Numbered from the stretch's first letter, positions 3,196 through 36,363 are shown. The stretch: 64,000 bases of DNA from Acidimicrobiia bacterium (GCA_041394025.1 JAWKJA010000002.1:979178-1043177); one strand, 5' to 3'. Notes: generated by a model from the letters alone, not told the origin. Numbers and translations are program-made.

Positions 3196-4200
3196 ATGAG
3201 CCCTGTCCCTGTCGTCTACGACACCGACGGTGGCGTCGACGACTGCTCCGCGCTCTGGTACGGGCTCGTGTCGAGTGAGATCGACATCGTCGGCGTCACG
3301 TCGGTGCACGGTGTCGTGTCGGCCCAGCAGGCCGCGGCCAACGTCGCAAAGGTCCTCGTCGCAGCGGACCGCACCGACATCCCGTACGCCGTGGGCGCCG
3401 AAGAGCCGATCGGTCCCCGACCAGGGTTCCCCGAGGCGGCGCTCATGCACGGCGAGGACGGTCTCGGCAACGCCGGACCGCCCGACGTCGACCTCGCTCC
3501 GACCGAGGAGACAGGCGCCGAGCTGATCGTGCGGCTGGCCAAGGAGCGCCCCGGCGAGTTGACCCTGGTGGCGGTCGGCCCGTTCACCAACGTCGCCCTG
3601 GCGCTTCGACTCGAGCCATCGCTCCCCGACCTCCTGGGCGACCTGGTGATCATGGGCGGCGCCGCGAGGCCACCCGGCAACGCCACTCCGCTGGGCGAGT
3701 TCAACGTCGTGTTCGACCCCGTCGCCTCCAACCAGATGGTTCTCGCCGGATGGCAGAGCCCCCCGCTGATGGTCGGTCTCGACGTCACGATGTCGGCCAC
3801 CATGGGCGACGCCGAGTTCGACGCCATGAACGAGCGGGCGACTCCCCAGGCTCGGTTCATGGCCGACCCGTTCGTTCTCTACCGCCAACTGAGCGCGATC
3901 GAAACCGGCGACGGGACCTGTCCGTCCCACGACACGCTGACGATGATGGCCGTCGAGCAACCCGACGTCGTCTCGGCGACCGAACTGCCGCTCGTGGTCG
4001 ACACGGGCGGCGATGCGGCGTTCGGCATGACGGTGGTCGACTTCCGCGCCGAGTGGCTGGACAAGGGGCTCGTTCCCGAGGAGTTCAGGGACATGGCGAT
4101 CGAGCAGTTCTACGGAGGGAAGGCGAAGTGGCGCATCGCCCTCGATGTCGACGTGGAACAGTTCCGGGCCTCGATCCGGCGCTTCTACTCCGGGGGCTGA
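3196..4200 (+). CDS. Nucleoside hydrolase (inosine/uridine-preferring, IUNH family)
   Basis: 334 aa. N-terminal VVYDTDGGVDDCSAL (DxDxxxDD Ca-binding motif). LVAVGPFTNVALAL and EFNVVFDP motifs. Confidence 0.85.
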   Translation: MSPVPVVYDTDGGVDDCSALWYGLVSSEIDIVGVTSVHGVVSAQQAAANVAKVLVAADRTDIPYAVGAEEPIGPRPGFPEAALMHGEDGLGNAGPPDVDLAPTEETGAELIVRLAKERPGELTLVAVGPFTNVALALRLEPSLPDLLGDLVIMGGAARPPGNATPLGEFNVVFDPVASNQMVLAGWQSPPLMVGLDVTMSATMGDAEFDAMNERATPQARFMADPFVLYRQLSAIETGDGTCPSHDTLTMMAVEQPDVVSATELPLVVDTGGDAAFGMTVVDFRAEWLDKGLVPEEFRDMAIEQFYGGKAKWRIALDVDVEQFRASIRRFYSGG

Positions 4201-6534: not shown

Positions 6535-7161
6535 TCAGCGCGTCCCGTAGAGACGATCACCGGCGTCGCCGAGTCCGGGCACGATGTAGCCGTCCTCGTT
6601 GAGCTGCCGATCCAGCGCGGCGGCGACGACGTGGACGTCGCGATGATCGGCAGCGACGCGTTCCACGCCTTCGGGTGCCGCAACGAGACAGATCACGGTG
6701 ATCCGCCCGGCGCCGCCTTCCTTGAGGAGCCCGCATGCCGCGGAGGTGGAACCTCCCGTCGCCAACATCGGGTCGATGAGCAGCACTCGACGTTGCTCGA
6801 GGTCGGCGGGGAACTTGGCGTAGTACTCGACCGGTTCGAGGGTCTCCTCGTCGCGGTACAGGCCCACGAACCCGACCCGTGCGACAGGGATCAGATCGAG
6901 GACGGCGTCGAGCATGCCGAGGCCGGCACGGAACACCGGCACCACGGCCAGCTTCTTGCCGCTGACCTTCCGTTGGGTGGTGCGCGCCAGCGGCGTCTCG
7001 ACCTCGATGGGCTCGGTCCCGAGGTCACGGGTCGCCTCGTACGTGAGGAGCGCTGCCAGTTCGGCGACGAGGTGGCGGAACTCCTTGGTCGTCGTCCTCC
7101 GATCACGCAGGAGCGCGAGCTTGTGGGCGACCAGGGGATGCTCGACGACGGTCAGCGGCAC
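6535..7161 (-). CDS. upp: Uracil phosphoribosyltransferase
   Basis: 208 aa. VVEHPLVAHKLALLRD N-terminus, LLIDPMLATGGS PRPP motif and YIVPGLGDAGDR C-terminus. Confidence 0.9.
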   Translation of the reverse strand: MPLTVVEHPLVAHKLALLRDRRTTTKEFRHLVAELAALLTYEATRDLGTEPIEVETPLARTTQRKVSGKKLAVVPVFRAGLGMLDAVLDLIPVARVGFVGLYRDEETLEPVEYYAKFPADLEQRRVLLIDPMLATGGSTSAACGLLKEGGAGRITVICLVAAPEGVERVAADHRDVHVVAAALDRQLNEDGYIVPGLGDAGDRLYGTR

Positions 7162-7167
7162 AGCTTC

Positions 7168-7647
7168 TCAGTCCTCCCACATGTGGTCGACTCCGATGTC
7201 CTCGTTCCACAACTCGGGGTGCTCGGTGACGAAGTCCGTCATCAGCGCCACACATTCATCGTCCCCGGCGTGGACGATCTCGACGCCGGCCGCGGCCAGG
7301 AGGTGCTCAGGCCCCGCGAAGGTCTCGCGCTCACCGATCACGACTCGTCCGATCCCGTACAGGAGGATGGCGCCCGTACACATGTGGCACGGCGAGAGCG
7401 TCGTGTACATCGTGGACCGCCGGTAGACCGTAGCGGGCCGTCGGCCGGCGTCTTCGAGAGCGTCGGTTTCGCCGTGGCGGATGGCGCTGCCCATCTGGAC
7501 GCGGCGGTTGCGTCCGGACCCCAGCACCTCGCCGTCCGCCACGAGTGCCGCGCCGATGGGCACACCACCCTCGTCGCGGCTGAGGCGCGCCTGGGCGATC
7601 GCCACCTCCAGATGCTCCCGGTCCTCCGCCGTCAATTCGTCATTCAT
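7168..7647 (-). CDS. Cytosine deaminase, CDA-fold (yeast Fcy1-like)
   Basis: 159 aa. HGE...PCHMCTGAI zinc motifs, and a C-terminal EHPELWNEDIG resembling the Fcy1 tail. It lies 6 nt upstream of upp. Confidence 0.8.
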   Translation of the reverse strand: MNDELTAEDREHLEVAIAQARLSRDEGGVPIGAALVADGEVLGSGRNRRVQMGSAIRHGETDALEDAGRRPATVYRRSTMYTTLSPCHMCTGAILLYGIGRVVIGERETFAGPEHLLAAAGVEIVHAGDDECVALMTDFVTEHPELWNEDIGVDHMWED

Positions 7648-11373: not shown

Positions 11374-11904
11374 TCAGGCGTCGGCTGGGTCGTCGGTTGT
11401 CTCCGTGACCACCGAGAGATCCACGCCCTCCACGGCCGCGCCGAGGTCCTCCATCCAGTCGTCGGGATGGGCAGCGATGAACTGCGTCGTGAGCTCGATG
11501 ACCTCCGGCTCTCCCAGATCGATCACCTCGACGCCGGCCGCCTCGAGGAAGTCGTGGCTGGGCGTGCGGACGCCGTCCACCGATGCCAGGCCCGCCACGA
11601 CTCGGGGGATTCCCAGTTGTACGATGGCGCCTGCGCAGAGGAAGCACGGGATGGCGTTGGTGACGAGCGTCGTCTGCGCCAACTCGGCCAGCGGGACCGT
11701 TCCCGCCGCGCGTAGGCACGTGATCTCGGCGTGGGCGGTGACGTCACCGTCCTGGTAGTGGCGGTTCCGGCCCGTCGACAGCACAACACCGTCGGCGGTC
11801 CGCACGAGCGCAGCGCCGAACGGCGCGCCGTTCTCCGCCAGGCTCGCCCGCGCTTCACGGCTCGCCTCCGCCCACCCGGGTGTGTCTGCAGTTGAACTCT
11901 CCAC
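11374..11904 (-). CDS. CDA-fold nucleoside/nucleobase deaminase, divergent Fcy1-like paralog
   Basis: 176 aa. HAE...PCFLCAGAI zinc motifs, an AHPDDWMEDLG tail and an acidic C-terminal extension. GTG start. Confidence 0.75.
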   Translation of the reverse strand: MESSTADTPGWAEASREARASLAENGAPFGAALVRTADGVVLSTGRNRHYQDGDVTAHAEITCLRAAGTVPLAELAQTTLVTNAIPCFLCAGAIVQLGIPRVVAGLASVDGVRTPSHDFLEAAGVEVIDLGEPEVIELTTQFIAAHPDDWMEDLGAAVEGVDLSVVTETTDDPADA

Positions 11905-11956
11905 AACCGCTCACTTCGTTGGATGATTGAGGTGGGATCAGCCTACGCTCCGCGGC

Positions 11957-12904
11957 GTGACGACGCTGCTGATCGACACCGACCCGGGAGCCGACGACGC
12001 TGTCGCCATCGCCATGGCGTTGCGCACCCCCGATGTAGAGGTGGCCGCCCTCACCACCGTGGCCGGGAACACCGGACTCGACGCGTCGACACGGAACGCT
12101 CTGATCGTCCTGGACCGGGCCGGCCACGACGACATCCCGGTGCATCCCGGCGCCGACCGTCCGCTCGAAGCCGAACCGGCGGCGGCAGGCCACATCCACG
12201 GTGAAGACGGACTCGGGGATCAGGGATTCGCCGCTGTCGGAGCGCCCCACGAGACTCCGGCCGTCGACGCCACGATCGCCCTGCTGCGCGAGCGAGGCCC
12301 GCAGATCACCTGGGTGGCCCTGGGTCCTCTCACGAACATCGCCTCGGCCGTACTCGAGGATCCGGACACCTGTCGCGCGGCCTCCGAACTCGTCGTCATG
12401 GGAGGAACGGGTGACGGCGTCGGCAATGTCACTCCCGCGGCCGAGTTCAACTTCTGGGCCGATCCCGAGGCGGCCCGCATCGTGCTCCGCTCGGGAATGC
12501 GCATCAGGGTCGTCGGATGGGACGTGTCCCGGCGCGACGCTCTGATCTCCGGGGCCGACCGGGATGCTCTTCTCTCATCGAGCGACGACCTGGGAGCCTT
12601 TCTCCATGCGGCGACGAGCACACTGTTCGAGTTCACGTCACGCCGCGAGCCCGTGGACACGATGGATCTCCCGGATCCTGTGGCGGTTGCCGCAGCCATC
12701 GAGCCCGAGTCGGCTGACTGGGTCGACGTCCACGCAGACGTCGAGTGCAGCGGGGAGCTCACCCGGGGTGCGCTCGTGGTCGACCACCTCGGCAATACGG
12801 GCCTGGACCCGAACATCACCCTCTGCACGGCGTTCGATTCCCGGCGTTTCCGCGAGATGTTCCTCGACACGCTGACGTCGGGGGGAAGGGAACGGGTGTC
12901 GTGA
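11957..12904 (+). CDS. Nucleoside hydrolase (IUNH family), second copy
   Basis: LLIDTDPGADDAVAIA motif, WVALGPLTNIA and EFNFWADPEAA. I prefer the GTG at 11957 over the track's TTG at 11927, so the start is uncertain. Confidence 0.8.
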   Translation: MTTLLIDTDPGADDAVAIAMALRTPDVEVAALTTVAGNTGLDASTRNALIVLDRAGHDDIPVHPGADRPLEAEPAAAGHIHGEDGLGDQGFAAVGAPHETPAVDATIALLRERGPQITWVALGPLTNIASAVLEDPDTCRAASELVVMGGTGDGVGNVTPAAEFNFWADPEAARIVLRSGMRIRVVGWDVSRRDALISGADRDALLSSSDDLGAFLHAATSTLFEFTSRREPVDTMDLPDPVAVAAAIEPESADWVDVHADVECSGELTRGALVVDHLGNTGLDPNITLCTAFDSRRFREMFLDTLTSGGRERVS

Positions 12905-14172
12905 CACACGACGTGAATGCCCGCTCGCGGATCGCCGACGCGGCTCTCGCCCATGTCGGTGACGAGCGGATCGCATGGGTGGAGCGCCACTCTCCCGTTC
13001 TCAACGCCCTGGCACGCGAACGACTGTCCGATGGAGCGCTCACCGGCCGACGCGTCGCCGTCGTCGTTCACCTCGAGGCCAAGACGGCGTACCTGGCGCT
13101 GCTCCTCGCCGAGGCCGGAGCCCACGTCGTCGCCGCGGGGAGCAATCCCCGCTCGACGAACGACGCCGTCTGCGCCGCACTCGTGCGCCGAGGAGTCGAG
13201 GTCCACGCGGTGCACGGCGCCGGGCCGGGCGAGTTCGACGCCGACCTCCTGGCCGTCGCCGACACGGCACCCGAGATCGTCGTGGACGACGGCGCCGAGC
13301 TCACGACCCGGATGGCCCAGCACCGCGGTGACCTCCTCGGCGGTCTGCGGGGTGTCACGGAAGAAACCACGACAGGCGTGGCCCGTCTCCGTGCGATGGA
13401 CGCGGCCGGCCGACTCACGTTTCCAGCCGTCGCCGCCAACGACGCCGCCTGCAAACACCTCTTCGACAACCGCTACGGAACGGGCCAGACGACGGTCCAG
13501 GCTGTTCTCGCCCTGACCAATTCGACGTTGTGGGGAACGGCGGTCACCGTTGTCGGCTACGGCTGGGTCGGGCGCGGTGTGGCGCAGTACGCCCGTGGAC
13601 TGGGCGCGCGAGTCACGGTTGTCGAGGTCGACCCTGTCAAGGCGCTCGAGGCGCACATGGAGGGCTACCGCGTCGGATCCCTCTCCGAGGTGCTACCCGA
13701 CTCCCGAGTCGTCGTGACCGCAACCGGTGGCGTGGACGCGATCCCCGCCGATGCGGTGCCCCTGCTCCGCGACGGCGTGATCCTCGCCAACGCCGGCCAC
13801 GACGACCGCGAGATCGACGTCGGCACGCTCCGTGAGGCCGCAGAGTCCGTCGACGAGCCCCGCGCCGGCGTGGAACGGCTCCGGCTCCCAGGGGACCGGG
13901 AGGTCCACCTGCTCGTCGGAGCGGGACTCGTCAACATCGCCGGTGGCGACGGCCACCCGATCGAGATCATGGACCTGAGTTTCGCCGTGCAGGCGCTCTC
14001 GGCCCACTACATCGCCTCGACATCGCTCGCTCCGGGAATCCACCGGTTTCCGGACGATCTCGACCGAGCCATCGCACGTACGAAGCTCGCCACTCTGGGA
14101 ATCACCCTCGACGAGTCGGCTTCGGCGCTCGACGCCATCCGCGGCGAGTGGGCGAGTGGGGAGCACACATGA
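12901..14172 (+). CDS. ahcY: Adenosylhomocysteinase-like hydrolase, short archaeal/bacterial type, with the canonical catalytic residues retained
   Basis: GTG at 12901 overlaps the upstream stop (GTGA). VHLEAKTA, VVDDGAEL, TEETTTGV, KHLFDNRYG, VVGYGWVGRG, NAGHDDREID and GHPIEIMD. Confidence 0.85.
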   Translation: MTHDVNARSRIADAALAHVGDERIAWVERHSPVLNALARERLSDGALTGRRVAVVVHLEAKTAYLALLLAEAGAHVVAAGSNPRSTNDAVCAALVRRGVEVHAVHGAGPGEFDADLLAVADTAPEIVVDDGAELTTRMAQHRGDLLGGLRGVTEETTTGVARLRAMDAAGRLTFPAVAANDAACKHLFDNRYGTGQTTVQAVLALTNSTLWGTAVTVVGYGWVGRGVAQYARGLGARVTVVEVDPVKALEAHMEGYRVGSLSEVLPDSRVVVTATGGVDAIPADAVPLLRDGVILANAGHDDREIDVGTLREAAESVDEPRAGVERLRLPGDREVHLLVGAGLVNIAGGDGHPIEIMDLSFAVQALSAHYIASTSLAPGIHRFPDDLDRAIARTKLATLGITLDESASALDAIRGEWASGEHT

Positions 14173-15389
14173 GCGAGATCGCCGACCCGTCGCTGGCGCC
14201 GACGGGCGAGACGAAGATCGCGTGGGCAGCCGACCGGGCACCCGTGATGGCCACCATGCGGGATCGGCTCCGGACCACAGGCGATGTCGAGGGGCGCCGG
14301 ATCGCCGTCGTTCTCCCCATCGAGCCCAAGACCGCTCTCCTGGCACGGATCCTGGCTGAATCCGGCGCCGAGGTGTCGATCACGTCCCCGCCGAGCATGG
14401 TGCACGACGACGTGGCCGCCGCGCTCTCGGCCGGGGGCGTCGAGGTGCTCGCCCGACGAAACATGAGCACCGACGACGAACAGCGCTACCACGGGATGCT
14501 GCTCGACCGACGTCCCGAGGTGATCGTCGACGACCGGGCCGACCTCATCACGCTGGCGCACACTTCCCGCACCGAGGCGCTCGACGATTTGATCGGAGCG
14601 ACCGAGCAGACGACCTCTGGTATCGAGGTCCTGACCCGACTCGACGCCGAGGGAACTCTCCGCGTTCCCGTGATCGCCGGCAACGACGCTCGTTGCAAGC
14701 ATCTCTTCGACAACCGCTACGGATCCGGCCAGTCGGTGATCGCAGCCGTCCTCGACCGCACGAACCTCCTCATGGCGGGCGCCAACGTCGTGGTCGTCGG
14801 CTACGGCTGGGTGGGTCGAGGTGTCGCCCGGGTGGCCGCCGGGATGGGAGCGAGGGTCACGGTCACGGAGGTCGACCCGGTTGCCGCCCTCGAGGCACAC
14901 CACGACGGCTTCGAGGTGGCGACCGTGCTCGACGCATGTGGCTCCGCCGAGTTCGTGATCACCTGCTCCGGGGTGCACGGGGCGCTGAGCCCCGAGGCGA
15001 TCGACCGCTGCCCGGACGGAGTCGTGCTCGCCAACGCGGCCGGCATCGACGATGAGTTCTCGGTTCCCGATCTCGCCGCCCGCGCGTCGACGCAGCGCAG
15101 GGTGCGACCCGAGGTCGACGAGTACGAGATGCCCGACGGCCGGTCGGTCTTCGTCGTCGGCGGCGGGCACTGCGTGAACCTGTCAGCCGGTGAGGGTCAC
15201 CCCGTGGAGATCATGGATCTCAGCTTCGCGGTGCAGGGCCTGGCCGCTGCCCACCTGGCGCGCCACGGCGGCGAGATGACGCCGGGTCTGCACGCGCTCC
15301 CCACGTCGATCGACGACCAGATCGCCCGCGACAAGCTGGCTGCGCTCGGAATCTCCATCGACGGGCGGGGACGGCAGCGCGAGACGTGA
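14169..15389 (+). CDS. Adenosylhomocysteinase-like paralog with substituted catalytic positions
   Basis: ATG at 14169 overlaps the upstream stop (ATGA). It keeps KHLFDNRYG, VVGYGWVGRG and GHPVEIMD. It has LPIEPKTA, TEQTTSGI and NAAGIDDEFS where paralog 1 has VHLEAKTA, TEETTTGV and NAGHDDREID. Confidence 0.8.
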   Translation: MSEIADPSLAPTGETKIAWAADRAPVMATMRDRLRTTGDVEGRRIAVVLPIEPKTALLARILAESGAEVSITSPPSMVHDDVAAALSAGGVEVLARRNMSTDDEQRYHGMLLDRRPEVIVDDRADLITLAHTSRTEALDDLIGATEQTTSGIEVLTRLDAEGTLRVPVIAGNDARCKHLFDNRYGSGQSVIAAVLDRTNLLMAGANVVVVGYGWVGRGVARVAAGMGARVTVTEVDPVAALEAHHDGFEVATVLDACGSAEFVITCSGVHGALSPEAIDRCPDGVVLANAAGIDDEFSVPDLAARASTQRRVRPEVDEYEMPDGRSVFVVGGGHCVNLSAGEGHPVEIMDLSFAVQGLAAAHLARHGGEMTPGLHALPTSIDDQIARDKLAALGISIDGRGRQRET

Positions 15390-15404: not shown

Positions 15405-15875
15405 TCACGACTCCTGGCGTCCCTGGCCGCGGGCCGCGGCCACACTCAGGCGATCGAGCGTCTCACCCATCCCACGCCGCAGTCGTGCCGGACGACCCAG
15501 CAGGCGCTCGACCGCGAGCATCACCGTGGGCGTCTCCAGCGACTCGTACGACTCGGTGACGCGTGTGCCGCCCTCGACGGGCTCGAGCCGGTAGCTCCAG
15601 CGCGTCAGAGGTCGACCGCCTCGACCCGTTACGTAGACGAGCTCGCGGTCGACCTCGCAGACCTCGAGCTCGCCGCGGGTCGTCCAGCGCAGTAGCCCCC
15701 AGCGGTTGTGGCCGACAAAGGTGCGCCCCGGGCCGAACGGGGCGCCGGGATCGTCCCATGTGCAGCCCGTGCACTCCGGGCTCCACTCCCCCATCCGGGG
15801 CAGGTCCGCGAGCAGCGCCCACACCCGCGCGGGTGGGGCGGGGACGACGACGCTCACCTCGTCGGTCAGCTTCAC
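15405..15875 (-). CDS. SRPBCC (START/polyketide cyclase-like) family protein
   Basis: GTG at 15875 overlaps the TetR stop (GTGA). 156 aa; VVPAPPARVWALLADLPRMGEWSPE is typical of SRPBCC proteins. Confidence 0.7.
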   Translation of the reverse strand: MKLTDEVSVVVPAPPARVWALLADLPRMGEWSPECTGCTWDDPGAPFGPGRTFVGHNRWGLLRWTTRGELEVCEVDRELVYVTGRGGRPLTRWSYRLEPVEGGTRVTESYESLETPTVMLAVERLLGRPARLRRGMGETLDRLSVAAARGQGRQES

Positions 15876-16441
15876 CGCGAAGGATCCGCGAGCAACTCGA
15901 GCAGTCGGTCGAACAGCATCCGGGGTGGCTCCTCGAGCAACCCTGCGGCGTGCAGGAACTGGATCCCGGCGCATGCCGCCGCCAGGAGCTGAGCCGAGAG
16001 CGCGTCGATGCTGCCCTCGCCATCGTCGGTGGCGAGACTCTGCAACGCCTCCACCGCGGGAGCGACCTCGGTGACGAGCTCGGGGTCGGCGCCCGCGGCC
16101 AGGACCCCTTCGAGCACCGCGCGTACTGCACCCACCTCCGTGCGCTCCAGGTATGCAGCCTGGTCCGCCAGGAACGTCGCGGTCCGCTCCGCTCCCGTGG
16201 GAGCACGGCGCGAAGCGTCGGCCACCTCCCGGGCGAACACCTCGACCTGGCGCCGGAGGGTCGCGCGCAGAAGATCGTCGCGGTCGCGGAAGTAGCGGTA
16301 GACGGCGGGCGCGGTCATCCCCGCTGCCGCCGCGACGTCGGCCACCTGGAGGCTGCTCGCACCCCGCTCGATCACCGCGGCGGTGGCGAGCGAGAGGAGC
16401 CGGTCCCGCGTCGCCTCGTGGTGTGTGGCCGGTCGCGCCAT
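15872..16441 (-). CDS. TetR family transcriptional regulator
   Basis: 189 aa. N-terminal HTH: SLQVADVAAAAGMTAPAVYRYFRDRDDLL. Confidence 0.85.
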   Translation of the reverse strand: MARPATHHEATRDRLLSLATAAVIERGASSLQVADVAAAAGMTAPAVYRYFRDRDDLLRATLRRQVEVFAREVADASRRAPTGAERTATFLADQAAYLERTEVGAVRAVLEGVLAAGADPELVTEVAPAVEALQSLATDDGEGSIDALSAQLLAAACAGIQFLHAAGLLEEPPRMLFDRLLELLADPSR

Positions 16442-35214: not shown

Positions 35215-36363
35215 TCAGTCGTCGCTGCCCAGGCGCCAGCGAGGGTCGGCGAGGAGAGCGTCCATCTCGGCGTTCCAGCGTTCTCGGCGATCGTCGTCAT
35301 CGAGCCACGCGGCGTCGAGTGAACGCCGCGCTGTCGCCGCCAGCTCCTCGGGCCCCCAACCCACCGTGCGGGTCGCGGCTCGGTACTCCTGTGCGAGGTC
35401 GGTGAAGAACATCGGGGGGTCGTCGCCGTGGATCGTGACATTGACGCCCGCCTCCACAAGACCACCCAGAGCGTGGCTGTCGAAGTCGGGCGTCAAGCCG
35501 GGCATCTGGAGGATGTTGCTCGTCGGACAGATCGTGAAGGGCACCTGCGAAGCAACGACCCGCTCGAGCAGTGCCGGGTCGTACAGCACGGCGTAGCCGT
35601 GGTCGAGGCGGTCGAGGCCCATGTCGAGCGCCGGAGCCACGTCGTCGGGCAGGTCGACGTGGCCGCACAGCTTCAGACCCGCGTCGCGGGCGACGTCGTA
35701 TCCGGGAGCAAGCGCGGCGAAGGGAACAGCGAGGGGATCGCCGTCGTTGCCGACGCCGACCACCCGCATGCCGCGGCTCCTCGCCTCGCCGGCGATCTCG
35801 GCGATCTCGCGGGCCCTGTCGCCCCCGGATCCGCGGTCGAACTCCACGATGACCCCACCCGTGAGATCCCAGGCCTCCGCTGCTGTCTCGAAGGCCGAGT
35901 CGATCGCCCCGAGGAACTCGTGGGCCTCAGCACCGTGGTCGAGGTAGTAGCCGAGCGTCACCATCATCTCCACGTGGCGGGCCCCACCGTCGACCTCTGC
36001 TCCCAGAACGTCGAGAGCCAGACGCCGGGTCGACTCGGTATCCCGCATGAGGGATGCCGAGCGCCGCATGTCCTGGATGAACTTGACGAAGCCCCGGTAG
36101 TCGTAGAGCGCATCGGGCCCGGCGGCTCCATGGCCGAAGTCGACGCCGCGCTCATGCGCCATCAGCCGCAACGTGGACGGACGGATGGAGCCCGAGAAAT
36201 GGAGGTGGAGCGACGCCTTGGGAAGCCGGCGGGCGAGGATGTCGAGCGCGATCTGCGGTCCGACCGGTGCCGCCTCGATGTCCATCATCCCGTCTTCGGG
36301 CAGGCCGTCCACGACGGCTTCGGCCGAGAGTTCCTCCATCCGCTTACCGACGTCGTCGGTCAT
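35215..36363 (-). CDS. Adenosine/adenine deaminase family (ADA-fold amidohydrolase) protein
   Basis: 382 aa. LPKASLHLHFSGS (HxH metal motif), HGY, TICPTSN and TIHGDDPPMF. The HxHxSGS variant resembles adenine-deaminase/ADAL-type members (by eye). Confidence 0.75.
   Translation of the reverse strand: MTDDVGKRMEELSAEAVVDGLPEDGMMDIEAAPVGPQIALDILARRLPKASLHLHFSGSIRPSTLRLMAHERGVDFGHGAAGPDALYDYRGFVKFIQDMRRSASLMRDTESTRRLALDVLGAEVDGGARHVEMMVTLGYYLDHGAEAHEFLGAIDSAFETAAEAWDLTGGVIVEFDRGSGGDRAREIAEIAGEARSRGMRVVGVGNDGDPLAVPFAALAPGYDVARDAGLKLCGHVDLPDDVAPALDMGLDRLDHGYAVLYDPALLERVVASQVPFTICPTSNILQMPGLTPDFDSHALGGLVEAGVNVTIHGDDPPMFFTDLAQEYRAATRTVGWGPEELAATARRSLDAAWLDDDDRRERWNAEMDALLADPRWRLGSDD

What the first reader, a model, noticed from the sequence alone, without database searches (positions are those of the whole stretch)
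14169..15389. The second SAH-hydrolase paralog has lost three catalytic positions but keeps the NAD-binding and lysine/aspartate motifs
I aligned both paralogs by eye to human AHCY landmarks.
- Paralog 1 keeps His55 (VHLEAKTA), Glu156 (TEETTTG), Lys186/Asp190 (CKHLFDN), His301 (NAGHDD) and His353 (GHPIEIM).
- Paralog 2 has Pro at the His55 position (LPIEPKTA), Gln at Glu156 (TEQTTSG) and Gly at His301 (NAAGIDD).
- Paralog 2 retains CKHLFDN, GYGWVGRG, TEVDP and GHPVEIM.

This pattern is typical of either a regulatory or scaffolding pseudoenzyme subunit (compare eukaryotic AHCY-like proteins) or a neofunctionalised NAD enzyme. Translational coupling to paralog 1 suggests a hetero-oligomer. That last step is inference.
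Basis: partly seen in the sequence, partly recalled or inferred. Interest (0 to 1): 0.6.

Follow-up and report, generated by a model that had tools for sequence, protein, structure and literature searches.

The report
Histidine-less partner of SAH hydrolase
The second of two overlapping SAH-hydrolase genes encodes a strongly conserved relative that keeps its NAD and nucleoside pockets but has lost the histidines and homocysteine contacts needed for hydrolysis; the same gene pair recurs in soil bacteria of three phyla, which suggests an undescribed two-subunit form of a textbook enzyme.

Summary
HMM and multiple alignments, with no indels near the key columns, place Pro, Gln and Gly of paralog 2 (14169-15389, NCBI MEZ5170016.1) at human His55, Glu156 and His301. 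The Lys186/Asp190, GxGxxG, TEVDP and GHP motifs are kept.

This is not a one-off decayed copy. Paralog 2 belongs to a "B-type" clade of 139 distinct sequences. In that clade His55->Pro and Gly132->Arg are invariant, and the His301-Phe302 gate and the Ser79/Asn80 homocysteine contacts are always replaced. Base, ribose and NAD contacts stay 98-100% conserved. Glu156->Gln is a weak marker, because it occurs in 11-14% of A-type, B-type and canonical sequences alike.

B is the sister clade of paralog 1's "A-type" clade, which carries HxExK, the fingerprint of S-inosylhomocysteine-preferring enzymes. A and B sit in the order A then B with an NTGA stop/start overlap at 18 loci from Actinomycetota, Acidobacteriota and Dormibacterota. 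They evolve at equal rates (dN/dS 0.1-0.3). In related lineages they are fused to each other or to an MtaD/DadD-like deaminase.

Best reading (confidence 0.5): B is a non-hydrolytic subunit that binds NAD and a nucleoside within a heteromeric archaeal-type SAH/SIH hydrolase. A new enzymatic activity for B is not excluded. I found no description of this in the literature; databases name both genes "adenosylhomocysteinase".

The parts
14169..15389 (+). Paralog 2, the 'B-type' His-less AHCY-like protein (406 aa, MEZ5170016.1)
   Evidence: ORF and identity. Pfam AdoHcyase plus AdoHcyase_NAD. NCBIfam NF004005 scores 479 bits, above its 275 cut-off, but TIGR00936 scores 405, below its 498 cut-off. 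AF2 model pLDDT 87, with TM 0.90-0.92 to T. maritima and P. furiosus SAHH.
12901..14172 (+). Paralog 1, the 'A-type' AHCY (423 aa, MEZ5170015.1). It has a full catalytic set and the HxExK fingerprint.
   Evidence: The fingerprint meaning comes from PMC10978960.
14169..14172 (+). ATGA overlap of the A stop and the B start (translational coupling), with a GGGGAG motif at 14158-14163
   Evidence: The same [A/G/T]TGA junction occurs at 17 other linked loci.
12901..12904 (+). GTGA overlap of the nucleoside-hydrolase stop and the A start
   Evidence: The start is confirmed by the NCBI protein length. The same three-gene operon is found in L084 and L085.
11927..12904 (+). Inosine-uridine-type ribonucleoside hydrolase, first gene of the coupled operon
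   Evidence: Pfam IU_nuc_hydro E=4e-88; RihC/RihA-like.
11374..11904 (-). Divergently transcribed CDA-fold deaminase, closest to yeast-type cytosine deaminase
   Evidence: Conserved next to the operon in L084 and L085.
14313..14336 (+). LPIEPKTA. Pro50 sits at the His55 column; the Glu52/Lys54 base contacts of HxExK are kept.
14382..14408 (+). TSPPSMVHD replaces the GSNPxSTQD loop. The Ser79/Asn80 homocysteine contacts are lost.
14529..14543 (+). DDRAD. Asp131 is kept and Gly132->Arg123, which is invariant in the B clade.
14601..14621 (+). TEQTTSG. Gln147 sits at the Glu156 column.
14694..14714 (+). CKHLFDN. Lys186, Asp190 and Asn191 equivalents are retained.
15033..15053 (+). NAAGIDD. Gly-Ile replaces the His301-Phe302 molecular gate.
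15189..15218 (+). GEGHPVEIMD. His353, Met358 and the hinge are retained.

Best explanation
Paralog 2 is the B subunit of an ancient, conserved two-gene AHCY system. An archaeal-type, HxExK-fingerprint hydrolase for S-adenosyl- or S-inosyl-homocysteine duplicated.

One copy (A, paralog 1) kept the catalytic apparatus. The other copy (B, paralog 2) kept the fold, the NAD site and the purine-nucleoside site. B lost everything that handles the homocysteine end of the substrate: His55, His301-Phe302 and Ser79/Asn80. It also gained an invariant Arg next to Asp131.

A and B are made in fixed proportion from overlapping genes. They most likely assemble into a mixed tetramer of the usual SAHH dimer-of-dimers type. 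In that tetramer A performs hydrolysis, while B is a non-hydrolytic partner that still binds NAD and probably a 6-oxopurine nucleoside. B's role would be structural or allosteric, "prozyme-like".

In this genome the pair is the tail of a nucleoside-hydrolase-A-B operon, so the nucleoside released would be split further.

Shown here: the sequence pattern, its conservation, the gene coupling, the fusions and the genomic context. Inferred: physical association, B's inactivity as a hydrolase, and what B does to A.
For: 1. Active-site pattern.
- Contacts in the P. furiosus SAHH-SIH crystal structure (PMC10978960 Table S5) divide the pocket into base, ribose and homocysteine parts.
- Across 139 B sequences the base contacts (Glu57, Lys59, Thr60, His353, Met358, Phe362), ribose contacts (Thr157, Lys186, Asp190) and NAD contacts are 98-100% conserved.
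- Five of the six homocysteine/5' contacts are uniformly replaced, and Gly132->Arg is 100%.
- Both histidines are essential even in the neofunctionalised family member AgmF: H56A and H299A abolish its activity (PMC8599513).

2. A and B are sister clades with mirrored topology. Pairwise distances correlate at r=0.94 over 15 loci.

3. Selection is equal on both. dN/dS is 0.11-0.32 for B and 0.13-0.31 for A.

4. The order A then B with an NTGA overlap holds at 18 of 18 linked loci. These come from Acidimicrobiia, Thermoleophilia/Gaiellaceae, Thermoanaerobaculia and Ca. Dormiibacter.

5. A Rosetta-stone fusion exists. The 800-aa protein P0122 is an A-like domain followed by a related His-less (VEK-type) domain.

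6. The context is consistently purine nucleoside and SAH salvage:
- MtaD/DadD-type amidohydrolase immediately after B, overlapping it in L086/L087
- Bmp/PnrA nucleoside-binding protein
- adenosine deaminase
- nucleoside phosphorylase or hydrolase
- glycine-cleavage genes

7. The B model folds confidently as SAHH.
Against: - No interaction data exist, and multimer modelling was not available.
- In Rubrobacteraceae, A and B are at separate loci. B is the last gene of an ECF-importer operon with a QueT-family S component. That looks like a function of B's own on an imported compound.
- A related His-less domain is fused to the amidohydrolase, with no A gene within the 6 kb retrieved on either side, in an isolate genome (P0169, L089).
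- Near-perfect conservation of Lys186, Asp190 and the base contacts is more than a scaffold needs.
- The supposed catalytic partner A is itself non-canonical in places: His301->Asn in Thermoanaerobaculia, His353->Asn in most Gaiellaceae-type A, Phe302 rarely Phe, and Asp134->Glu always.
- Whether these genomes also carry a canonical AHCY is unknown.
Confidence: 0.5

Rival explanations
1. B is an enzyme in its own right. It would be an NAD-dependent nucleoside-transforming enzyme with a rebuilt 5' pocket, which is small and hydrophobic and carries an invariant Arg. It would act on a 6-oxopurine nucleoside that is not a homocysteine conjugate. Candidate substrates are 5'-deoxyinosine or 5'-methylthioinosine made by the neighbouring DadD/MtaD-like deaminase, or an imported nucleoside. 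A and B would then be consecutive or parallel enzymes rather than subunits.
For: - Base, ribose and NAD contacts, including the oxidation base Lys186, are conserved at 98-100%. Substitutions at the 5' site are invariant rather than random (Pro55, Arg132).
- B lies next to, or in related clades is fused with, a TRZ/ATZ-MtaD-DadD-type amidohydrolase.
- B sits in an ECF-importer operon without A in Rubrobacteraceae.
- The fused A~B gene lies in a LacI-regulated ABC-uptake operon.
Against: - Every characterised reaction of this fold, including the AgmF dehydratase, needs the two histidines that B lacks.
- I can point to no residue that would replace them as acid/base, apart from the untested Arg.
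- The strict 4-nt coupling to A and the A~B fusion are more typical of subunits.
- L084's B has lost even the Glu/Lys base contacts.
Confidence: 0.25
2. B works with the deaminase rather than with A. It would be a nucleoside-binding or channelling module that hands the deaminase product (the S-inosyl or inosine form) on to A, or that regulates the deaminase.
For: - The amidohydrolase gene starts inside the end of B in L086 and L087 and follows B in L005, L020, L021, L028 and L047.
- P0169 (998 aa) and P0244 (889 aa) are fusions of a His-less AHCY-like domain with Amidohydro_1.
- B keeps the 6-oxopurine (ExK) recognition residues.
Against: - In the window's own lineage no such amidohydrolase is present in the operon or anywhere in the 64 kb, yet B is retained under purifying selection.
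- Canonical single AHCY genes also sit next to such amidohydrolases (L039, L055, L072), so adjacency may simply reflect the SAH-deaminase/SIH-hydrolase pathway.
- The fusions are in the related VEK-type clade, not in B proper.
Confidence: 0.12
3. B is still an ordinary SAH/SIH hydrolase, as the databases annotate it. Other residues or a bound water would compensate for the missing histidines, and the pair would simply be two isozymes.
For: - B scores above the NCBIfam NF004005 cut-off (479 against 275 bits) and is named adenosylhomocysteinase by NCBI and JGI.
- Lys186, Asp190, Asp131 and the NAD site are intact.
Against: - His55 contacts the sulfur, and His55, Asp131 and His301 contact O5' in the crystal structures.
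- The His-Phe gate is described as conserved in SAHHs of all domains of life.
- Ser79, Asn80 and Phe302, which hold the homocysteine moiety, are all replaced.
- B scores below the TIGR00936 cut-off.
- Mutating the equivalent histidines abolishes activity in AgmF.
Confidence: 0.05
4. B is a decaying duplicate on its way to becoming a pseudogene.
For: In the window's sub-lineage B shows extra losses: Glu156->Gln, loss of the C-terminal tail, and loss of the ExK residues in L084.
Against: - The ORF is intact.
- dN/dS is 0.11 against the closest relative.
- The rate equals that of A.
- There are 139 distinct conserved sequences across three phyla.
- The clade predates the split of these lineages.
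Confidence: 0.02

Closest known systems
Archaeal-type SAH/SIH hydrolases with the HxExK fingerprint (P. furiosus 7R37/7R38, M. maripaludis 7R3A, T. maritima 3X2E; PMC10978960)
   Same: - This is the closest solved relative: E=1e-100, 45% identity, TM 0.90-0.92.
- It has the same short architecture without the 40-residue insert.
- Both A and B carry the Glu/Lys base-binding residues.
- The genes are often adjacent to a DadD/MtaD-type deaminase.
   Different: - Those enzymes are homotetramers of one catalytic subunit with His55, Ser79/Asn80 and the His-Phe gate.
- B has none of these and carries Arg at Gly132.
- The system here is two diverged genes, in the order A then B with overlapping stop and start.
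Eukaryotic AHCY-like proteins AHCYL1/IRBIT and AHCYL2 (PDB 3MTG, 3GVP; review PMC12955632)
   Same: - They are catalytically inactive paralogs of AHCY.
- They keep the fold and carry substitutions at catalytic residues.
- A heterotetramer with AHCY has been proposed.
   Different: - Their origin is independent. B is far closer to archaeal-type enzymes (E=1e-100) than to AHCYL (E=1e-43).
- B has no N-terminal IRBIT domain.
- AHCYL function is mainly signalling and ion transport, and the AHCY-AHCYL1 interaction is judged weak.
- Here the two genes are translationally coupled.
AgmF, the SAHH-family NAD-dependent dehydratase of angustmycin biosynthesis (PMC8599513)
   Same: It is a bacterial (actinomycete) SAHH homolog that does not hydrolyse SAH and has tightly bound NAD. 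It shows that the fold can be re-purposed.
   Different: AgmF keeps His56, Asp129, Lys184, Asp188 and His299 and needs all of them. B lacks both histidines. B sits in salvage operons, not in a biosynthetic gene cluster.
'Prozyme'-type dead paralogs that activate their catalytic partner (trypanosomatid AdoMetDC prozyme, deoxyhypusine synthase). Cited from my own knowledge, not checked here.
   Same: A duplicated enzyme in which one copy loses catalytic residues yet is retained under selection as an obligate hetero-oligomer partner.
   Different: Those cases are eukaryotic and shown experimentally. Here, association and any effect on activity are only inferred.

Membership tests
Adenosylhomocysteinase (SAHH/AHCY) as a fold family | Two-domain AdoHcyase fold (PF05221 plus PF00670) | tested here: met
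   Pfam hits. AF2 model pLDDT 87 with TM 0.90-0.92 to 3x2f and 7r37.
Adenosylhomocysteinase as an enzyme | NAD-binding residues: GxGxxG, Glu243, Asn191, Asn346, Thr157-159 | tested here: met
   GYGWVGRG, TEVDP, FDN, VNL and TTS are present. They are 98-100% conserved in the B clade.
Adenosylhomocysteinase as an enzyme | 3'-oxidation and ribose residues: Lys186, Asp190, Thr157, Glu156 | tested here: inconclusive
   Lys, Asp and Thr are kept. Glu156 is Gln in the window's B, but Gln also occurs in 11-14% of A and canonical sequences.
Adenosylhomocysteinase as an enzyme | Acid/base pair His55 and His301 at C5'/sulfur | tested here: not met
   The columns hold Pro50 and Gly292. No B-type sequence has His at either column.
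Adenosylhomocysteinase as an enzyme | His-Phe molecular gate | tested here: not met
   The gate is Gly-Ile here. Across the clade it is G/A followed by I/V/L.
Adenosylhomocysteinase as an enzyme | Homocysteine-binding residues Ser79 and Asn80 | tested here: not met
   GSNP is replaced by SPPS. The clade has Q/P followed by G.
Adenosylhomocysteinase as an enzyme | Curated HMM cut-offs | tested here: inconclusive
   NF004005 scores 479 against a cut-off of 275 (pass). TIGR00936 scores 405 against 498 (fail). NF004010 scores 292 against 512 (fail).
Adenosylhomocysteinase as an enzyme | Reversible hydrolysis of SAH (or SIH) | not testable with these tools
   This needs an enzyme assay.
S-inosyl-L-homocysteine-preferring hydrolases (HxExK fingerprint) | HxExK motif in the substrate domain | tested here: not met
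   B has PIEPK, so Glu and Lys are kept but His is lost. Paralog 1 has HLEAK, so it meets the motif.
AHCYL1/2 (IRBIT family) | N-terminal IRBIT/PEST domain; metazoan lineage | tested here: not met
   B starts 10 residues before the AHCY core. It is much closer to archaeal-type enzymes than to 3mtg or 3gvp.
AgmF-type NAD-dependent dehydratases | Conserved and essential His56, Asp129, Lys184, Asp188 and His299 | tested here: not met
   Both histidines are absent in B.
Dead-paralog ('prozyme'-like) subunit of a hetero-oligomer | Paralog of the catalytic subunit that lacks catalytic residues but is under purifying selection | tested here: met
   Sister clades. dN/dS 0.1-0.3. Column statistics.
Dead-paralog ('prozyme'-like) subunit of a hetero-oligomer | Co-expression with the partner in fixed proportion | tested here: met
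   NTGA overlap at 18 of 18 linked loci. An A-like~VEK-type fusion exists. Exception: the genes are unlinked in Rubrobacteraceae.
Dead-paralog ('prozyme'-like) subunit of a hetero-oligomer | Physical complex with the catalytic paralog, and an effect on its activity | not testable with these tools
   This needs pull-down, native mass spectrometry and kinetics.

The most novel reading that the evidence does not exclude
The B-type proteins, together with the wider set of His55/His301-less AHCY-like domains found here (the AEK and VEK types, including those fused to amidohydrolases), are not dead subunits.

Instead they would be a new class of NAD-dependent nucleoside enzymes or sensors. These would act on the 6-oxopurine nucleosides produced by DadD/MtaD-type deaminases, such as 5'-deoxyinosine or 5'-methylthioinosine from radical-SAM and polyamine by-products, or on an imported nucleoside.

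They would use 3'-oxidation chemistry together with an invariant Arg in place of the histidine pair. That would define an unrecognised salvage route in abundant soil Actinomycetota, Acidobacteriota and Dormibacterota.
Probability: 0.2. Interest if true: 0.85.

Novelty: new variant of a known kind. Interest (0 to 1): 0.66.

Why it matters
SAH hydrolase is treated as a uniform homotetramer. Its His-Phe gate and catalytic histidines are described as conserved in all domains of life.

This work shows a large, ancient bacterial clade that lacks those residues. Hundreds of 90%-identity clusters from soil metagenomes belong to it, and all are annotated simply as "adenosylhomocysteinase". The clade is nevertheless under strong selection and is genetically locked to an intact paralog.

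If the pair forms a heteromer, three things follow:
- It would be the first prokaryotic AHCY pseudoenzyme-subunit system.
- It would be a clean, operon-encoded model for how dead paralogs are retained.
- It would be a bacterial counterpart for the disputed AHCY-AHCYL1 interaction.

If B is instead catalytic, it would reveal new chemistry on a well-studied fold.

Either way, automatic annotation of methyl-cycle capacity in these phyla currently double-counts AHCY.

Tried and rejected
- Alignment artefact: rejected. Three independent alignments agree and show no gaps near the motifs.
- One-off degenerate copy or pseudogene: rejected on conservation and dN/dS.
- AgmF-like dehydratase: rejected, because AgmF requires both histidines.
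- Orthology with eukaryotic AHCYL: rejected.
- The divergent CDA-fold gene as an SAH deaminase: rejected. It is closest to yeast-type cytosine deaminase.
- MtaD-like amidohydrolase or a third AHCY in the window: none found. Only an adenosine-deaminase-family gene at 35215-36363 turned up.
- Literature searches for bacterial heteromeric, paralogous or pseudoenzyme AHCY returned nothing relevant. Two recent reviews do not mention such proteins.
- The Foldseek afdb50 library was unavailable, so I could not list UniProt organisms.
- A search with the Rubrobacter B-type returned only MAG and metagenome sources among the best 120 hits, with no cultured strain named.
- My first mirror-tree calculation mishandled alignment columns and is void. 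One search replaces it.
- Active-site geometry could not be inspected, because the structure tool returns no coordinates.
- Whether genomes with A/B also carry a canonical HxTxE AHCY could not be determined. The single genome scan keeps only 80 loci.
Full report
**What is in the window**

The window is high-GC (about 68-70%). It is identical over these genes to a 1.6-Mb contig of an Acidimicrobiia MAG. Three genes on the + strand are chained by 4-nt stop/start overlaps:
- an inosine-uridine-type ribonucleoside hydrolase (11927-12904);
- paralog 1, here called A (12901-14172, GTGA overlap, 423 aa, MEZ5170015.1);
- paralog 2, here called B (14169-15389, ATGA overlap, 406 aa, MEZ5170016.1).

B is preceded by a GGGGAG motif at 14158-14163. 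A yeast-type cytosine-deaminase-like gene is transcribed divergently (11374-11904).

Further upstream lie a second nucleoside hydrolase, upp and another CDA-fold deaminase, so the neighbourhood is nucleoside and nucleobase salvage. A and B are 46% identical to each other. Both pass the NCBIfam model NF004005 and are named "adenosylhomocysteinase" in the databases, but both fail the stricter TIGR00936 cut-off.

**Checking the observation**

The phmmer alignment of B to T. maritima SAHH (3x2e, E=1.5e-100) is gap-free around every motif:
- LPIEPKTA lies under IHLEAKTA.
- TEQTTSG lies under SEETTTG.
- ANAAGIDDE lies under ANAGHFNVE.

MAFFT and profile alignments that include human AHCY give the same columns. 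They are His55->Pro50, Glu156->Gln147 and His301->Gly292. Lys186, Asp190, Asn191, GxGxxG, TEVDP and GHP are retained. Paralog 1 keeps all five landmark residues.

B has only four close relatives (69-89% identity). After those comes a very large set at 58-63% identity from Thermoleophilia, Gaiellaceae and other Actinomycetota, and these share the same substitutions.

A scan of one genome per species added further members from Rubrobacteraceae, Thermoanaerobaculia/Acidobacteriota and Candidatus Dormiibacter. Classifying every AHCY homolog at these loci by its catalytic columns gave four groups:
- canonical HxTxE enzymes;
- canonical HxExK enzymes;
- an "A-type" (HLEAK, DDGAE, GH[H/Y/D]);
- a "B-type" (P[IVL]E[PA]K, DDRA, G[G/A][V/I/L]).

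In a neighbour-joining tree, A and B are sister clades nested among the archaeal-type sequences. Their internal topologies mirror each other. Pairwise distances of A and B from the same loci correlate at r=0.94 over 15 loci, with similar mean divergence of 0.37 and 0.41 (one search is void). dN/dS is 0.11-0.32 for B and 0.13-0.31 for A in the same genome pairs.

B is therefore an old, co-inherited gene that is as constrained as A. It is not a decaying copy.

**Anatomy of the B active site**

Table S5 of the archaeal SAHH structure paper lists the contacts in the P. furiosus enzyme bound to S-inosylhomocysteine:
- hypoxanthine: Glu57, Lys59 and His350;
- ribose: Glu153, Thr154, Lys183 and Asp187;
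- the homocysteine moiety: His55 (to sulfur), Ser79, Asn80, Asp128 and Phe299, with His298 and Gly297 in van der Waals contact.

I compared 139 distinct B-type, 34 A-type and 21 canonical HxExK sequences.
- The base contacts and Thr157, Lys186 and Asp190 are 98-100% conserved in B, and the NAD contacts are largely so. This is at least as strict as in A.
- Every homocysteine-side residue except Asp131 is replaced uniformly: His55->Pro (100%), Ser79->Gln/Pro, Asn80->Gly, His301->Gly/Ala and Phe302->Ile/Val/Leu.
- Gly132->Arg is invariant.
- Glu156->Gln occurs in 11-14% of all three groups, so it is not a mark of inactivation.

The His-Phe pair is the "molecular gate", described as highly conserved in SAHHs of all domains of life. 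His55 is stated to be important for catalysis. In AgmF, the only neofunctionalised bacterial family member I could find, H56A and H299A abolish activity.

B therefore keeps a nucleoside-plus-NAD site with the 6-oxopurine (ExK) signature, but it has lost the machinery and the binding site for the homocysteine end. An AlphaFold2 model of B is confident (pLDDT 87). It superposes on T. maritima and P. furiosus SAHH at TM 0.90-0.92.

**Genetic linkage**

At all 18 loci where A and B are adjacent, A precedes B and the A stop overlaps the B start as ATGA, GTGA or TTGA. These loci are the window, L001-L005, L010, L014, L017, L020, L028, L047 and L084-L087.

A search of 1.8 billion cluster representatives with a B profile turned up further His-less AHCY-like lineages:
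- an AEK/DDMAE/GGP type;
- a large VEK/DDG[SA]H/GGV/N type.

It also turned up informative fusions:
- P0122 (800 aa) is an A-like domain followed by a His-less VEK-type domain. It sits in a LacI-regulated operon with an ABC importer and an amidohydrolase (L088).
- P0169 (998 aa, from an isolate genome, L089) and P0244 (889 aa) are a His-less domain fused to an Amidohydro_1 domain.

**Context**

- In Thermoleophilia-type loci, B is followed by an amidohydrolase of the TRZ/ATZ-MtaD-DadD group, and in L086/L087 it is overlapped by it. This group includes the 5'-deoxyadenosine, MTA and SAH deaminases. The hits are below the equivalog cut-offs, so substrate is not assigned.
- These loci are also flanked by a Bmp/PnrA nucleoside-binding lipoprotein.
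- One locus lies directly after gcvT-H-P.
- Ca. Dormiibacter adds adenosine deaminase and a nucleoside phosphorylase.
- The window's sub-lineage has instead the nucleoside hydrolase and cytosine-deaminase-like genes.
- Canonical single AHCYs of the same branch also sit beside such amidohydrolases (L039, L055, L072).

This fits the published SAH -> S-inosylhomocysteine -> inosine + homocysteine route and the HxExK preference for the inosyl substrate.

The exception is Rubrobacteraceae. There A sits alone near gap-pgk-tpi. B is the last gene of an ECF-importer operon (fused EcfA, EcfT and a 274-aa QueT-family S component) in seven of ten B-type loci from Rubrobacter-type genomes. One genome demonstrably has both genes (L016, L018).

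**Interpretation**

The best-supported reading (confidence 0.5) is that A and B are the two subunits of a heteromeric archaeal-type SAH/SIH hydrolase. A would be catalytic. B would be a non-hydrolytic partner that still binds NAD and a nucleoside, in the manner of a "prozyme" or an AHCYL-type protein. Shown: the sequence pattern, its age and constraint, the coupling, the fusions and the salvage context. Inferred: physical association, B's lack of hydrolase activity, and any effect on A.

The main rival (0.25) is that B is an enzyme in its own right with a remodelled 5' pocket. Three things favour it:
- the extreme conservation of the ribose and base residues and of Lys186;
- the invariant Arg;
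- the ECF and amidohydrolase associations.

A third possibility (0.12) ties B functionally to the deaminase. Ordinary hydrolase (0.05) and pseudogene (0.02) are unlikely.

Some facts remain unexplained:
- A-type proteins are themselves non-canonical in places: His301->Asn in Thermoanaerobaculia, His353->Asn in most Gaiellaceae-type A, Glu156->Gln in Ca. Dormiibacter, Asp134->Glu always, and Phe302 rarely Phe.
- L084's B has lost the Glu/Lys base contacts.

**Comparison with what is known, and novelty**

By fold and descent, B is a member of the AdoHcyase family, archaeal-type branch. It fails the defining catalytic features of the enzyme: His55, His301, the gate and the homocysteine contacts. 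It should not be annotated as adenosylhomocysteinase.
- It is analogous to AHCYL1/2 but not homologous in origin. It has no IRBIT domain and is much closer to the archaeal-type enzymes.
- It is unlike AgmF.

Full-text searches and two 2026 reviews gave no mention of bacterial AHCY heteromers, paralog pairs or pseudoenzymes. This is absence of evidence within the searched library only. I rate it a new variant of a known kind, with interest 0.66.

Noticed in passing
window 3196-4200 (+), 6535-7161 (-), 7168-7647 (-), 35215-36363 (-): A second IU-type nucleoside hydrolase, uracil phosphoribosyltransferase, another CDA-fold deaminase and an adenosine-deaminase-family gene lie here. The region around the AHCY pair is therefore a nucleoside and nucleobase salvage neighbourhood.
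   Followed up: partly
P0123 (827 aa), P0140 (824 aa); no locus fetched: These proteins consist of two tandem, heavily degenerate AHCY-like domains. Glu156 is Lys (Arg in P0140's second domain), the His301 column is Arg, Ser or retained His, and His353 is Asn or Ala. This looks like another uncharacterised internal-heterodimer architecture of the fold.
   Followed up: no
L089 6001-8997 (P0169, isolate GCA_006715765.1); P0244; L088 4045-6447 (P0122): A separate 'VEK/DDG[SA]H/GGV/N' clade of His-less AHCY-like domains exists. Many members carry 90-260 aa N-terminal extensions of unknown nature, which could be start-codon miscalls. The domain is fused to an Amidohydro_1 domain (998 and 889 aa proteins) or placed behind an A-like domain (800 aa, in a LacI/ABC-importer/amidohydrolase operon).
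   Followed up: partly
L008 294-4892; also L006, L007, L009, L012, L013, L016: In Rubrobacteraceae the B-type gene is the last gene of an ECF-transporter operon: fused EcfA, EcfT and a 274-aa QueT-family S component. The A-type gene sits elsewhere, in L018/L019 a few genes downstream of gap-pgk-tpi. This B-type is very abundant in soil metagenomes.
   Followed up: partly
L014, L017, L020, L028 (A genes); L001-L004, L010, L086, L087 (A genes); L047 4721-5980: The 'intact' A-type partner carries its own substitutions. His301 is Asn in Thermoanaerobaculia, His353 is Asn in most Gaiellaceae-type sequences, and Glu156 is Gln in Ca. Dormiibacter, whose B keeps Glu. Asp134->Glu is universal in A.
   Followed up: partly
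L010 2658-3467: A DUF62-type (R)-S-adenosyl-L-methionine hydrolase-like gene lies about 1 kb upstream of the Bmp-A-B cluster.
   Followed up: no
L087 2173-10561: The A-B-amidohydrolase cluster sits directly downstream of the glycine-cleavage genes gcvT, gcvH and gcvP1/P2. This links the pair to one-carbon metabolism at that locus.
   Followed up: no
L084 7217-8437: This close relative of the window's B (69% identity) has PLTPD in place of PIEPK. It has therefore lost even the Glu/Lys nucleobase contacts that 98% of B-types keep.
   Followed up: no
window 15405-16441 (-): A SRPBCC/polyketide-cyclase-like gene and a TetR regulator lie immediately downstream on the opposite strand. Both are conserved in the same position in L084 and L085.
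   Followed up: no
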